Shown one piece after another: positions 20,501-23,500 of a DNA stretch of 64,000 nt; positions within the stretch are counted from its first letter, which is position 1, and every line of letters starts with the position of its first letter. The stretch lies in the NCBI RefSeq assembly GCF_057098645.1, contig NZ_CM169472.1, one strand, 5' to 3'. The position numbers are program-made.

Positions 20501-23500
20501 GAAATTATCGGGGAAAGGACTGTACTCATGTTCTAACCTCCTCAGATTAGGCGCGACGACCTTTTTGCGCCTCTAGCCACCGCGCAACGGTTTCTTCAAT
20601 TGATTCTTTTTTCTCCTTCATTTCCTTAAGCATTTTCTCTTTGTCTTCTTTTGGGAAAGCCCTGAACGTCTGGATCAAATCTCGCTCTATAGGTTCTATA
20701 TTAAACGGAAGTTCGTTTTCCGATTGCTCCATCTCTGCGGGTAAAGCGACAACATTATCCTGCTGCAGTTCTTGGGGGTACATCCTTACAATTCGTAACA
20801 AGTCTGCCATATCTGGTCTAATTGACTCAGGCGGAACTTGTAGCAACCCAGCGAACTTGATAACAGCCTCTAGATTTAAAGGTGTCTGACCATTTAGATA
20901 ATGGCTTACTGCCCCTTGTGTCGAAAAACCCAGAATTTCTGCCGCACGCTCTTGGGTTAACCCAAGTTGAGTTTTTTTCGTCGTCCAGATTTCTTTCAGT
21001 CTCTGGGCGGCTTGCAGGTCGATCTCTGACAGGGGTTTTCTTTTCATACCTTCAATTCTAATAAGATTATTAATCTCTTTGAAATAGCGATGCTATTTAC
21101 TTTTAAAAATAACAATGTTATTAATGCTCATGGTCACATAACATGAGGTGAACAATGAATCTTGGAGAATATTTGCATCATTCCCGTATAACCCAGAAAG
21201 ATTTTGCTGAAATTGTTGGGGTAACCCAAGGGATGGTAAGCCATGTTATTACTGGACGGGCGAAACTTACGGGGGGGGAAAGTTTTACGCTGGTGTGAAG
21301 CAACAGGGTGGGTAGTGACCCCGCACGAGATTGATAGCAGTACTTACCCCAACCCAACCGATGGCATACCTGTTGACTATCAGGCTAACACACAACCCGC
21401 GCTGGGAGTTGATTCATGAAAATCAAGCATGAGCACATCCGCATGGCGATGAATGCCTGGGCATACCCTGATGGTGAGAAAGTTCCTGCAGCTGAAATAG
21501 CCCGGACTTATTTCGAACTGGGGATGACGTTCCCGGAACTGTACGACGACAGCCATCCGGAAGCCCTGGCTCGTAATACCCAGAAAAATTTCCGCTGGGT
21601 AGAGAAAGACACCCCTGATGCAGTTGAAAAAATTCAGGCGTTGTTACCAGCGATCGAAAAGGCAATGCCACCTTTGCTGGTGGCAAGAATGCGCAGCCAC
21701 AGTTCAGCTTATTTTCGGGAGCTGGTGGAGACGCGGGAGCGACTGGTGAGAGACGCTGATGATTTTGTCGCAGTGGCAATCGCCGGTTTCAATCAGATGA
21801 ACCGTGGTGGCCCGGCAGGAAATGCTGTGGCAGTGCATTGAGTGATAATAGCCATATCGAATCGCTTCCGGCAACTCGTGAGTAAAAAGATTCGGTATCA
21901 GAAGAGGTGAGTATGGCTAACGCCTGGCTCAGATTATGGCATGACATGCCAAATGACCCTAAGTGGCGAACAATTGCCAGGGTGTCAGGGCAGCCAATTG
22001 CAACAGTGATGGCAGTGTATATCCACCTCCTGGTGAGCGCGTCACGAAATGTCACGCGAGGTCACATTGATGTCACGACAGAAGATTTGGCAAGTGCGCT
22101 CGACGTGACAGAAGAGGTAATTGATTCAATTTTGCAGACGATGCAGGGGCGGGTACTTGATGGTGATTTAATCACTGGATGGGAAAAACGCCAGGTGCTT
22201 AAAGAGGACAACGGCAATATTTCGCAAACCGCAAAATCTCCTGCAGAGCGCAAGAGGGCGCAGCGAGAGAGGGAAAGAAAGCGGGAACAAAATGGCGATT
22301 GTCACGGCGCGTGGATTTGCCCCTATATTTCCAGACATCTGTTATCACTTAACCCATTACAAGCCCGCTGCCGCAGATATTCCCGTGGCGAGCGATAACC
22401 CAGCGCACTATGCGGATGCCATTCGTTATAATGCTCGAACGCCTCTGCAAGGTTCTTTGCTGCCGTTAACCCGTCTGGTTTGGGCATGATACTGATGTAG
22501 TCACGCTTTATCGTTTTCACGAAGCTCTCTGCTATTCCGTTACTCTCCGGACTCCGCACCGCCGTGTTCTTCGGTTCAAGTCCCAACATCCGGGCGAACT
22601 GGCGTGTTTCATTAGCCCGGTAGCATGAACCATTATCCGTCAGCCACTCCACTGGAGACGACGGAAGATCGTTGCCGAAGCGGCGTTCCACCGCTCCCAG
22701 CATGACGTCCTGTACTGTTTCACTGTTGAAGCCGCCGGTAGTCACCGCCCAGTGCAGTGCCTCACGATCACAGCAGTCCAGCGCGAACGTGACACGCAGT
22801 CTCTCTCCGTTATCACAGCAGAACTCGAACCCGTCAGAGCACCATCGCTGATTGCTTTCTTTCACGGCCACTCTGCCTGTATGTGCCCGTTTCGATGGCG
22901 GTACAGCAGGTTTTCGCTCAAGCAACAGCGCATTCTGGCGCATGATCCGGTAAACACGTTTGGCATTGATCGCAGGCATACCATCAAGTTCTGCCTGTCT
23001 GCGAAGCAGCGCCCATACCCGACGATAACCATACGTGGGCAGCTCTCCGATAACATGGTGTATACGGAGAAGCACATCCGTATCATCAGTGTGACGACTG
23101 CGGCGGCCATCCATCCAGTCATCGGTTCGTCTGAGAATGACGTGCAACTGCGCACGCGACACCCGGAGACAACGGCTGACTAAGCTTACTCCCCATCCCC
23201 GGGCAATAAGGGCGCGTGCGCTATCCACTTTTTTGCCCGTCCATATTCAACGGCTTCTTTGAGGAGTTCATTTTCCATCGTTTTCTTGCCGAGCAGGCGC
23301 TGGAGTTCTTTAATCTGCTTCATGGCGGCAGCAAGTTCAGAGGCAGGAACAACCTGTTCTCCGGCGGCCACAGCAGTAAGACTTCCTTCCTGGTATTGCT
23401 TACGCCAGAGAAATAACTGGCTGGCTGCTACACCATGTTGCCGGGCAACGAGGGAGACCGTCATCCCCGGTTCAAAGCTCTGCTGAACAATTGCGATCTT

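What the first reader, a model, noticed from the sequence alone, without database searches (positions are those of the whole stretch)
21265..21420. G8 homopolymer truncates the cro-like gene; one fewer G restores an 87-aa protein coupled to the next gene
With 8 G the ORF stops after 47 codons. With 7 G it reads ...TGGKVLRWCEATGWVVTPHEIDSSTYPNPTDGIPVDYQANTQPALGVDS and ends in an ATGA overlap with the YdaT-like gene. That is either a sequencing error, a fixed inactivating mutation, or a slippage-prone switch in the lytic regulator. A second G8 tract lies at 37776-37783.
Basis: seen in the sequence. Interest (0 to 1): 0.5.

Follow-up and report, generated by a model that had tools for sequence, protein, structure and literature searches.

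The report
Frameshifted cro-like gene in cryptic prophage
One extra G in a run of Gs has broken the Cro-like "lytic switch" gene of a decaying lambdoid prophage in an E. coli O145:H28-type lineage; the mutation is real, inherited and apparently stable, so this is ordinary prophage decay at a slippage-prone site rather than a sequencing error or a working on/off switch.

Summary
G8 lies at 21271-21278. The ORF 21155-21298 stops after 47 codons. Removing one G gives the 87-aa protein WP_001048459.1, whose stop overlaps the ydaT start (ATGA).

It is not a sequencing error. Five complete genomes carry the same G8, including RM13516, which was sequenced with 454, Illumina and PacBio. The 47-aa product occurs on 114 contigs and one IMG/VR contig.

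Linked substitutions order without homoplasy: YdaT I58N, then G7 to G8, then repressor I117L. All 26 I117L contigs examined are G8. This points to one origin, stable inheritance and no reversion.

The frameshift falls at the start of predicted helix 4. It removes every invariant family residue after G22 (W52, VTPH 54-57, YPNPTD 64-69, P72).

The locus is a heteroimmune relative of the CP-933P paaR2-paaA2-parE2 / ydaS-ydaT immunity region. There, an engineered ydaS stop mutant loses the ydaST-on state.

The window's prophage also has IS2 in its replication gene, two further IS elements and an exonuclease deletion.

The tract is a true hot spot. Independent frameshift alleles (G6, G4A6, possibly G5, G9, A8 and A5) occur in other backgrounds.

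The second G8 (37776-37783) is intergenic and common.

Verdict: a real pseudogene of an ordinary kind, of low to moderate interest.

The parts
21271..21278 (+). G8 homopolymer. The ancestral state is G7, so this is a +1 G insertion after codon 41 of the cro-like gene.
   Evidence: G7 in OkiPb01717, 90-3040, 2013C-3492, 2013C-4830, 2012C-4227, DETEC-S792 and SW070917.
21155..21298 (+). Truncated ydaS/cro-like ORF of 47 aa: 41 native residues plus ESFTLV. It keeps predicted helices 1-3 of the HTH domain only. An SD-like GAGGTG lies upstream.
   Evidence: ORF. HTH_3 matches residues 12-40, 23.1 bits against a cutoff of 23; helices at 3-10, 14-21, 25-32, 41-49 and 56-59.
21279..21419 (+). Out-of-frame 3' remainder of the cro-like gene (K42-S87 of the ancestral protein). 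It encodes helix 4, helix 5 and the conserved W52, VTPH and YPNPTD residues, and ends in an ATGA overlap with ydaT.
   Evidence: the invariant columns W52, V54-H57, Y64-D69 and P72 all lie here..
21416..21841 (+). ydaT (CII-like regulator), 141 aa and intact. It carries the lineage-specific I58N change in recognition helix alpha3. Its own SD-like GGGAG lies 8 nt upstream.
   Evidence: PF06254, E 1.3e-8. PDB 3C4R E 2.4e-88 and 8BT1 E 1.3e-77. I58N; alpha3 spans Ala50-Asp63.
21409..21426 (+). YdaT operator consensus TTGATT-N6-AATCAA, spanning the ydaS stop and the ydaT start.
   Evidence: 1 match against 0.02 expected. The consensus comes from PMC9986795.
21048..21154 (.). Divergent control region. 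It holds the operator-like sites TAATAAGATTATTA (21059-21072) and TAACAATGTTATTA (21110-21123). A PRM-like TTCAAA-17-TAGAAT on the minus strand (21083-21055) would give a leaderless repressor mRNA.
   Evidence: The analogy with leaderless paaR2 rests on the PMC8630535 section list. Function is inferred.
20547..21047 (-). PaaR2-like CI-type repressor of 166 aa, with an HTH but no peptidase domain.
   Evidence: HTH_3, E 1.8e-9; the C-terminal 64 aa are 58% identical to the repressor of an O157:H7 PaaR/PaaA/ParE-type locus.
20048..20529 (-). PaaA2-like antitoxin (20338-20529) and ParE-family toxin (20048-20338), in an operon behind the repressor.
   Evidence: PaaA2 PDB 3ZBE, E 1.7e-22. PF21217 PaaA2 and PF05016 ParE_toxin. 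PGAP names.
22313..23642 (-). IS2-type insertion (InsC/InsD-like ORFs) interrupting the replisome-organizer gene that starts at 21913. This is a second inactivating lesion of the same prophage.
   Evidence: Only draft assembly GCA_048063055.1 (L028) shares the junction.
37776..37783 (+). Second G8 tract. It is intergenic, about 145 nt upstream of the holin ATG at 37927, and truncates no gene.
   Evidence: an identical 201-bp stretch occurs in many O145, O103 and O121 genomes with no annotated feature. C325 has G7.

Best explanation
The G8 tract is a real, inherited +1 G slippage mutation (G7 to G8) that has turned the Cro-like regulator gene (ydaS type) of a lambdoid prophage next to yccA into a pseudogene. 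The prophage's immunity region is of the PaaR2-PaaA2-ParE2 / YdaS-YdaT type. The mutation arose once, in a lineage that includes E. coli O145:H28 strains RM13516 and RM12761. It came after a YdaT I58N substitution and before a repressor I117L substitution, and it has been transmitted stably since. The 47-aa product keeps helices 1-3 of the HTH domain. It lacks helices 4-5 and the most conserved C-terminal residues, so it is most likely non-functional (inferred). Translational coupling to ydaT through the ATGA overlap is lost (shown by the sequence). The predicted consequence is that the Cro arm of the bistable switch is gone. The region should then sit permanently in the repressor-on state, with the toxin-antitoxin genes expressed, and the prophage should be locked in. 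This step is inferred by analogy with the engineered ydaS stop mutant of CP-933P. It is one step in the decay of a prophage that in this genome also carries IS2 in its replication gene, two further IS elements and an exonuclease deletion. The G/A homopolymer at this codon position is a mutational hot spot that has been hit independently in other lineages.
For: Real, not an error:
- G8 is present in five complete genomes from Belgium, Spain and Korea. RM13516 was sequenced with 454, Illumina and PacBio.
- The 47-aa and 58-aa ORFs occur on 114 and 115 contigs. The intact 87-aa form occurs on at least 999.
- 1 of 28 IMG/VR contigs has G8.

Ancestral frame:
- All G7 relatives are annotated with the 87-aa protein.
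- Homologues from E. albertii, Shigella, Salmonella and Raoultella are 87-105 aa.
- Homologues in Stx2a phages, Rac-SA53 and Gifsy-1/2 align past residue 72.

Single origin, no reversal:
- Four haplotypes form a linear series without homoplasy.
- 26 of 26 contigs read with repressor L117 are G8.
- G7 with N58 occurs only together with the ancestral I117 (L030, L031).

Loss of function:
- Thirteen of the 15 invariant columns lie after residue 41.
- The AlphaFold model (pLDDT 81) starts helix 4 at residue 41.
- The fold matches the P22 c2, 434 Cro and CP-933P YdaS N-terminal domains over about 56-65 residues.

System identity:
- PaaA2, E 1.7e-22; YdaT, E 1.3e-77 to 8BT1; one YdaT operator against 0.02 expected.

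Functional analogy:
- A ydaS stop mutant abolishes the ydaST-on population in CP-933P (PMC8630535).

Decay context:
- IS2, IS21-family and IS3-family insertions and a 388-bp exonuclease deletion.

Hot spot:
- G6 as the only indel in L035, L037 and L038.
- G4A6 in the complete genome CFIAFB20190157, flagged 'frameshifted' by PGAP, and in DEC12D and OkiPb00243.
- Products implying G9, A8 and A5.
Against: No expression or binding data exist for this allele, so the loss of function and the 'locked' state are inferred. Sequence similarity to the experimentally studied CP-933P YdaS is low: phmmer finds no PDB hit at E up to 1, and identity is 26% in the structural alignment. The operators and regulatory wiring may therefore differ. 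In the G8 clade the rest of the immunity region is intact in most genomes (repressor, PaaA2, ParE, YdaT, and the replication genes in RM12761 and C325). A neutral-decay reading is therefore not the only one, and selection for ydaS loss is possible. Only 26 of about 366 index blocks for the L117 haplotype were read, so rare revertants (below about 10%) would be missed. Low-level restoration of the frame by RNA polymerase or ribosome slippage on G8 cannot be excluded from sequence alone.
Confidence: 0.85

Rival explanations
1. Phase-variable contingency switch. The G tract expands and contracts reversibly at a useful rate, so a population always contains Cro-ON (G7) and Cro-OFF (G8) cells. That would modulate prophage inducibility or toxin-antitoxin expression.
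For: The tract is demonstrably unstable on evolutionary scales. G5, G6, G7, G8 and probably G9 occur in one allele, and G4A6, G5A5 and G5A8 in sister alleles. Poly-G tracts of 8 or more are the classic substrate of phase variation in other bacteria (own knowledge). A second G tract in the same prophage also differs between close relatives, G8 against G7.
Against: G8 is clonal. It is perfectly nested in a linear haplotype series, with no G7 among 26 L117 contigs. The clade has diversified (an IS insertion, a deletion, spread across three countries) without reversal. The G7 tract is not conserved: sister alleles encode GEK, GKK or GRN at this position with interrupted runs. So a long tract is not being maintained by selection. 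E. coli with intact mismatch repair is not known to use such tracts as contingency loci (own knowledge).
Confidence: 0.07
2. Programmed recoding. The G8 gene is expressed as two products, the 47-aa form and, through +1 ribosomal frameshifting or transcriptional slippage on the G run, the full 87-aa form.
For: A run of eight G allows tRNA-Gly re-pairing in the +1 frame and, in principle, RNA polymerase slippage (own knowledge). The downstream frame is still open up to the ATGA overlap.
Against: The frameshift is confined to one young clade. All other homologues are single in-frame ORFs, which is the opposite of the conservation expected for programmed recoding. No stimulatory element was looked for or noticed. 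The downstream frame being open is expected for a recent mutation.
Confidence: 0.03
3. Sequencing or assembly artefact. The true tract is G7 and the extra G is a homopolymer miscall.
For: Homopolymers are the classic indel-error site for 454, PacBio CLR and Nanopore data. Several Logan contigs with aberrant tract lengths also have deletions in other homopolymers and are probably erroneous (L036, L040).
Against: The same G8 is in five complete genomes from different laboratories, one of them polished with 60-70 million Illumina reads. The 47-aa product is on 114 contigs from NCBI, ENA and Logan, and one IMG/VR contig has G8. G8 co-segregates perfectly with linked SNPs, which random miscalls would not do.
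Confidence: 0.02
4. The truncated 47-aa HTH peptide, alone or together with a separately initiated 58-aa C-terminal ORF (21243-21419), is still a functional or dominant-negative regulator.
For: The 47-aa product retains the helix-turn-helix proper and still scores marginally for HTH_3, at 23.1 bits against a cutoff of 23. An ATG at 21243, with an AAGGGA about 9 nt upstream, opens the frame that ends in the ATGA overlap.
Against: The five-helix XRE fold needs helices 4-5, and the split falls at the start of helix 4. The most conserved residues of the family are lost from the N-terminal piece. PGAP does not call a gene here in five genomes.
Confidence: 0.03

Closest known systems
ydaS (Cro analogue) of the paaR2-paaA2-parE2 / ydaS-ydaT immunity region of cryptic prophage CP-933P, E. 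coli O157:H7 (Jurenas et al. 2021, PMC8630535; YdaT structure PMC9986795)
   Same: The gene order and orientation match: ParE toxin, PaaA2 antitoxin and a CI-like repressor lacking a peptidase domain on one strand, divergent from the Cro-like HTH gene, YdaT and the replication genes. PaaA2 and YdaT are close homologues. The YdaT operator TTGATT-N6-AATCAA sits at the ydaS/ydaT junction. The Cro-like protein has the same fold (8CO2, TM 0.65/0.75). An engineered ydaS stop mutant there loses the ydaST-on state, which is the phenotype predicted here.
   Different: The region is heteroimmune. The Cro-like protein is only about 26% identical in structural alignment and phmmer does not detect it. The repressor DNA-binding domain was not compared directly with CP-933P PaaR2; it is unalignable with the repressor of a related O157:H7 PaaR/PaaA/ParE-type locus (L032), and different operators are inferred. 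Here the knockout is a natural +1 G frameshift fixed in a lineage. The CP-933P gene has no G tract at this position; that was checked only in a related O157:H7 locus (L032), which turned out not to be CP-933P itself.
racR / ydaS-ydaT of the Rac cryptic prophage, E. coli K-12
   Same: A repressor faces a Cro-like ydaS and a ydaT. According to the abstracts (PMC5700373, PMC5700377), derepression of ydaS-ydaT is harmful to the host. That gives a plausible selective reason for losing ydaS.
   Different: There is no detectable match to the Pfam YdaS family. The Rac locus has no PaaA2-ParE2 module. Rac ydaS is intact in K-12.
Lambda cro-minus mutants
   Same: The Cro arm of a CI/Cro bistable switch is lost, giving a prophage biased to or locked in the repressed state (established lambda genetics, as summarised in PMC8630535).
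   Different: Lambda Cro has a different fold from the XRE-type five-helix domain predicted here. The repressor here lacks the RecA-dependent cleavage domain.
Simple-sequence-repeat contingency loci (poly-G phase variation in Neisseria, Haemophilus, Campylobacter)
   Same: A poly-G tract inside an ORF whose length sets the reading frame, with several tract lengths seen in nature.
   Different: There is no evidence of reversibility within the clone. The tract is not conserved among homologues. The host species is not known for this mechanism (own knowledge).
Frameshift pseudogenes in defective lambdoid prophages of EHEC (the 'defective prophage pool', Asadulghani et al. 2009, cited in PMC7067040)
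   Same: Point indels and IS insertions accumulate in regulatory, replication and morphogenesis genes of resident prophages. The window shows IS2, IS21-family and IS3-family insertions and a deletion.
   Different: Nothing essential differs. This is the class the finding belongs to. The added detail is that the same codon position has been hit repeatedly in different lineages.

Membership tests
Cro/CI-type (XRE, Pfam HTH_3) DNA-binding proteins | HTH_3 profile match above Pfam's gathering score | tested here: met
   The restored 87-aa protein scores 26.9 bits against a cutoff of 23 (residues 12-51). The 47-aa product scores 23.1 bits (residues 12-40), which is borderline.
Cro/CI-type (XRE, Pfam HTH_3) DNA-binding proteins | Five-helix lambda-repressor-like fold | tested here: met
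   AlphaFold pLDDT 81, helices at 3-10, 14-21, 25-32, 41-49 and 56-59. Foldseek probability 1.00 to P22 c2, 434 Cro and CP-933P YdaS, although E-values are only about 0.04-0.15 for this small domain.
Functional Cro analogue of a lambdoid immunity region | First gene of the rightward operon, divergent from the repressor gene, followed by a CII-like gene and replication genes | tested here: met
   the order is repressor (minus strand), ydaS-like (plus), ydaT (plus), then replisome organizer and a DnaC-like ATPase.
Functional Cro analogue of a lambdoid immunity region | Binds the shared operators and represses PRM | not testable with these tools
   Only operator-like repeats were found. The experimental precedent is for CP-933P YdaS.
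Rac-type YdaS (Pfam YdaS family) | Match to the Pfam YdaS profile | tested here: not met
   One search lists only HTH_3, HTH_31, HTH_26 and I-HmuI_NUMOD-like at E up to 0.1. No YdaS-family hit appears.
PaaR2-PaaA2-ParE2 / YdaS-YdaT type immunity region (CP-933P type) | PaaA2-family antitoxin and ParE toxin in an operon behind an HTH repressor that lacks a peptidase domain | tested here: met
   PaaA2 3ZBE, E 1.7e-22. PF21217 and PF05016; the repressor matches HTH_3 only.
PaaR2-PaaA2-ParE2 / YdaS-YdaT type immunity region (CP-933P type) | YdaT homologue with its TTGATT-N6-AATCAA operator at the ydaS/ydaT junction | tested here: met
   8BT1, E 1.3e-77; one match at 21409-21426 against 0.02 expected.
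PaaR2-PaaA2-ParE2 / YdaS-YdaT type immunity region (CP-933P type) | Bistable expression that depends on the repressor and YdaS | not testable with these tools
   Shown only for CP-933P on a reporter plasmid.
SSR-mediated phase-variable (contingency) gene | Hypermutable repeat within the ORF that sets the frame | tested here: met
   G5 to G9 and G/A variants at one site.
SSR-mediated phase-variable (contingency) gene | ON and OFF lengths interspersed among very close relatives (reversibility) | tested here: not met
   a linear haplotype series without homoplasy; 26 of 26 L117 contigs are G8.
SSR-mediated phase-variable (contingency) gene | Length heterogeneity within a single culture | not testable with these tools
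   No read-level data are available.
Programmed frameshift or transcriptional-slippage gene | Frameshift site conserved across homologues | tested here: not met
   all homologues outside the G8 clade are single in-frame ORFs of 87-105 aa.

The most novel reading that the evidence does not exclude
The G/A homopolymer at codons 40-43 of this ydaS family acts as a built-in weak point. Different E. coli lineages repeatedly and independently disable the Cro arm of PaaR2-type prophage switches through it. That would be parallel, selected 'locking' of a toxin-antitoxin-bearing cryptic prophage. In the strongest form, the change is reversible at low frequency within populations, adding a genetic layer to an already bistable epigenetic switch.
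Probability: 0.12. Interest if true: 0.55.

Novelty: new member of a known kind. Interest (0 to 1): 0.25.

Why it matters
The practical value is mainly for annotation and for predicting phenotype.

- **Annotation.** PGAP leaves this gene unannotated in the G8 genomes, so the immunity region looks as if it has no Cro.
- **Phenotype.** Recognising the frameshift explains the apparent gap. It also predicts that this prophage cannot enter or hold the Cro-on state in the O145:H28 ST6130-type lineage, while near-identical G7 prophages in other strains may.
- **A natural experiment.** The G7/G8 pair (intact ydaS against ydaS-null, with otherwise about 99.8% identical immunity regions) could test the CP-933P model of toxin-antitoxin bistability in its chromosomal context.
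- **An open question.** Repeated hits at one codon position in several lineages raise the possibility that hosts select for loss of the Cro-like regulator. This is not proven here.
- **A lineage marker.** G8 together with YdaT I58N and repressor I117L marks the lineage.

Tried and rejected
1. **Exonuclease region.** A MAFFT alignment suggested the window's exonuclease region was highly divergent. BLAST showed that the window simply lacks about 388 bp there and is otherwise 99.98% identical to C325.
2. **Source genome.** I searched for the window's own genome among 5,426 complete E. coli genomes using the IS2 junction. None has it. Only draft assembly GCA_048063055.1 (L028) shares it.
3. **S1-CAM-02-A.** Its product name 'transcriptional regulator' looked like another pseudogene. 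The sequence is identical to the intact G7 gene, with a later annotated start.
4. **L026 (OU349848.1).** This locus appeared to place EF-Tu next to the 47-aa ORF. It is an N-gapped scaffold, not biology.
5. **L032.** I first treated this O157:H7 locus as CP-933P. Its YdaS-like protein has no phmmer match to the PDB YdaS entries and the locus lies next to an 'ECs1072 family' gene. It is probably a paralogous PaaR/PaaA/ParE locus, and I cite it only as such.
6. **Unreliable Logan contigs.** L036 and L040 carry deletions in several other homopolymers. I set them aside as probable sequencing errors. L034 has one other homopolymer deletion and is less secure. L043, L045 and L046 also carry a T-run deletion in the repressor gene and are ambiguous.
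7. **Literature.** A search for cro, frameshift, cryptic prophage and homopolymer found nothing relevant to this locus. The O145:H28 genome papers do not mention it.
8. **Statistical test of the tract.** Its presence is not unusual: 2 observed against about 1.6-2.2 expected.
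Full report
**Observation.** The window reads ACTTAC-GGGGGGGG-AAAGTTTT, with eight G at 21271-21278. The ORF starting at ATG 21155, preceded by GAGGTG, runs through ACG GGG GGG GAA AGT TTT ACG CTG GTG TGA and stops at 21296-21298 after 47 codons. The +1 frame from 21279 is open to TGA 21417-21419, which overlaps the ATG of the next gene at 21416 (ATGA). The second G8 at 37776-37783 is also there, and these are the only G or C runs of 7 or more in the window. Two G/C runs of 8 or more in 64 kb is what base composition predicts, about 1.6-2.2. The tract matters for where it lies, not for existing.

**What the gene and its neighbourhood are.**
- The restored protein matches Pfam HTH_3 over residues 12-51.
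- Its AlphaFold model (pLDDT 81) is a five-helix XRE/Cro-type domain with helices at 3-10, 14-21, 25-32, 41-49 and 56-59.
- The model superposes on P22 c2, 434 Cro and the N-terminal domain of YdaS from prophage CP-933P (8CO2, TM 0.65/0.75).
- The next gene is a YdaT-family protein. It is nearly identical to PDB 3C4R and close to CP-933P YdaT 8BT1 (E 1.3e-77).
- Leftward, on the other strand, lie a 166-aa HTH repressor without a peptidase domain, a PaaA2 antitoxin (3ZBE, E 1.7e-22) and a ParE toxin.
- The published YdaT operator TTGATT-N6-AATCAA occurs once in the window, exactly across the ydaS stop and ydaT start (21409-21426; 0.02 expected).
- The 107-bp divergent control region carries two operator-like sites, TAATAAGATTATTA and TAACAATGTTATTA. 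It also carries a PRM-like promoter that would give a leaderless repressor mRNA.

This is the architecture described for the paaR2-paaA2-parE2 / ydaS-ydaT immunity region of CP-933P. [quoted passage not shown] The window's version is heteroimmune. The Cro-like protein is only remotely similar in sequence to CP-933P YdaS. It is 37% identical to the YdaS-like protein of another O157:H7 PaaR/PaaA/ParE-type locus.

**The prophage.** It sits next to yccA and has lambda-like late genes.

**Is the extra G real?** Yes.
- Among 5,426 complete E. coli genomes, 71 carry this gene region. Five have G8: RM12761 and RM13516 (O145:H28, Belgium), C325 (Spain), and Z1323HEC0422 and Z1323HEC0399 (Korea).
- RM13516 was assembled from 454, Illumina HiSeq and PacBio data. 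It belongs to ST6130.
- In all five, PGAP annotates no gene between the repressor and ydaT.
- In a collection of about 15 billion proteins, the 47-aa product is on 114 contigs and the downstream 58-aa ORF on 115. The intact 87-aa protein is on at least 999.
- An exact-pattern scan of IMG/VR found 28 contigs, 27 in frame and one with G8.

**Which state is ancestral?** G7.
- Every close relative with G7 carries the 87-aa ORF, annotated as WP_001048459.1, overlapping ydaT by 4 nt.
- Homologues from E. albertii, Shigella, Salmonella and Raoultella are 87-105 aa.
- Homologues in Stx2a phages, Rac-SA53 and Gifsy-1/2 align well beyond residue 41.
- In an alignment of 13 family members, the invariant residues other than M1 and G22 are W52, V54-T55-P56-H57, Y64-P65-N66-P67-T68-D69 and P72. 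All lie downstream of the frameshift.
- The shift falls at the first residue of predicted helix 4.

The 47-aa product therefore keeps the helix-turn-helix proper. It loses two helices of the fold and the family's signature C-terminal residues. Non-function is the likely outcome, but this is inferred.

**Switch or fixed mutation?** Two linked amino-acid substitutions allow an ordering: YdaT I58N and repressor I117L. Four haplotypes were observed:
- I117 / I58 / G7, the ancestral and common type.
- I117 / N58 / G7, in two draft assemblies (L030, L031).
- I117 / N58 / G8, in the window and in draft L028, which shares the window's IS2 junction.
- L117 / N58 / G8, in the five complete genomes and many drafts.

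These form a linear series with no homoplasy: I58N first, then the G insertion, then I117L. All 26 contigs read that carry L117 are G8. The G8 clade has since spread across three countries and, in the window's branch, acquired an IS2 insertion and a deletion, without the tract changing. This is the pattern of a single, stably inherited mutation. Revertants at a frequency below roughly 10% and within-culture heterogeneity cannot be excluded without reads.

**The site is nevertheless a slippage hot spot.** Different alleles of the gene read G7A3, G5A6 or G4A7 at this position, encoding GGK, GEK or GKK.
- G6 is the only indel in three otherwise clean contigs from backgrounds 98.2-99.9% identical to the reference (L035, L037, L038).
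- G4A6 occurs in the complete genome CFIAFB20190157, flagged 'frameshifted' by PGAP. It is also in DEC12D, OkiPb00243 and others, on 13-18 contigs with differing downstream genes.
- Protein products imply G9, A8 and A5 variants.
- G5 is seen on two short contigs.
- Contigs L036 and L040, with multiple homopolymer deletions, were discounted as error-prone assemblies.

[quoted passage not shown] Tandem stop codons in ydaS abolish the ydaST-on population. By analogy, the G8 allele should leave only the repressor-on state, with the PaaA2-ParE module expressed. The Cro-dependent commitment to the rightward (lytic) programme would be lost.

The premature stop also uncouples ydaT translation, leaving 117 untranslated nucleotides. 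ydaT does keep its own GGGAG Shine-Dalgarno sequence. YdaT itself carries I58N in recognition helix alpha3, two residues from the essential Arg60. Both rightward regulators are therefore altered in this lineage. Overproduction of YdaS-type proteins impairs growth, as the abstracts on Rac also report. Loss of ydaS could therefore be mildly advantageous to the host, but neutral decay at a hot spot explains the data equally well.

**Context of decay.** Relative to C325 the chromosomal flank is 99.98% identical. Against that background, the window's prophage has:
- an IS2-type element at 22313-23642 inside the replisome-organizer gene;
- a deletion of about 388 bp in the exonuclease gene;
- an IS21-family element (IstA/IstB, 33772-35741) at the 5' end of the nanS-p-like esterase gene;
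- an IS3-family element at 39628-40937.

**The second G8.** It lies in the intergenic region about 145 nt upstream of the holin start. The identical 201-bp stretch, including G8, is found in many O145, O103 and O121 genomes with no annotated feature. C325 has G7 there. It truncates nothing.

**Comparison and novelty.** This is a frameshift pseudogene in a resident lambdoid prophage, a well-known kind of event in EHEC genomes. The closest characterised system is the CP-933P immunity region. The finding is a natural equivalent of its engineered ydaS-null mutant, in a heteroimmune relative. I found no paper describing this allele or the recurrent hits at this codon position. I rate it a new member of a known kind. 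Interest is low to moderate, with a small chance that the recurrence reflects selection or low-frequency reversibility.

Noticed in passing
window 22313-23642: An IS2-type element (InsC/InsD-like ORFs on the minus strand) interrupts the prophage replisome-organizer gene that starts at 21913. None of the 5,426 complete E. coli genomes has this junction; only draft assembly GCA_048063055.1 (L028) shares it.
   Followed up: partly
window ~17524-17526: About 388 bp of the prophage exonuclease gene is missing relative to C325 and all other relatives examined. A first MAFFT alignment made this look like divergence.
   Followed up: partly
window 33670-35800: An IS21-family element (IstA 33772-34944, IstB 34941-35741) is inserted at the 5' end of the nanS-p-like SASA esterase gene (35790-37478). 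It is absent from C325. This is the position where Stx phages carry stx.
   Followed up: no
window 39628-40937: A 1310-bp IS3-family element sits at a different place from the identical copy in C325, where it lies near the tRNA genes. This indicates recent transposition within the prophage.
   Followed up: no
window 21588 (ydaT codon 58): An I58N substitution in YdaT recognition helix alpha3, two residues from the conserved Arg60. It is specific to this lineage and arose before the G8 insertion (179 contigs against at least 999 for I58).
   Followed up: partly
window 20699 (repressor codon 117): The window keeps the ancestral I117, whereas the five complete G8 genomes have L117. This places the window's lineage basal in the G8 clade.
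   Followed up: yes
window 37776-37783: The second G8 tract is intergenic upstream of the holin gene and is shared identically by many O145, O103 and O121 prophages. C325 has G7 there, so this tract is also length-polymorphic. No function was examined.
   Followed up: partly
window 21059-21072 and 21110-21123; minus strand 21083-21055: Two operator-like near-palindromes (TAAYAA-NN-TTATTA) lie in the divergent control region. A PRM-like promoter ends 7-8 nt before the repressor ATG (21047), implying a leaderless mRNA as reported for paaR2.
   Followed up: no
protein P0068 (one NCBI contig, not in the window): A 74-aa partial protein fuses the repressor C-terminus (...KEMKEKK) to the C-terminal part of the ydaS-like protein (ILRWCEATG...). 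This suggests an inversion or a chimeric assembly at the A-rich tract.
   Followed up: no
L032 (O157:H7 PV15-279, 1153561-1157262): O157:H7 carries a second PaaR/PaaA/ParE-type immunity region next to an 'ECs1072 family' gene. Its YdaS-like protein is 37% identical to the window's and has no phmmer match to the PDB YdaS of CP-933P. This shows several heteroimmune versions of the module.
   Followed up: partly
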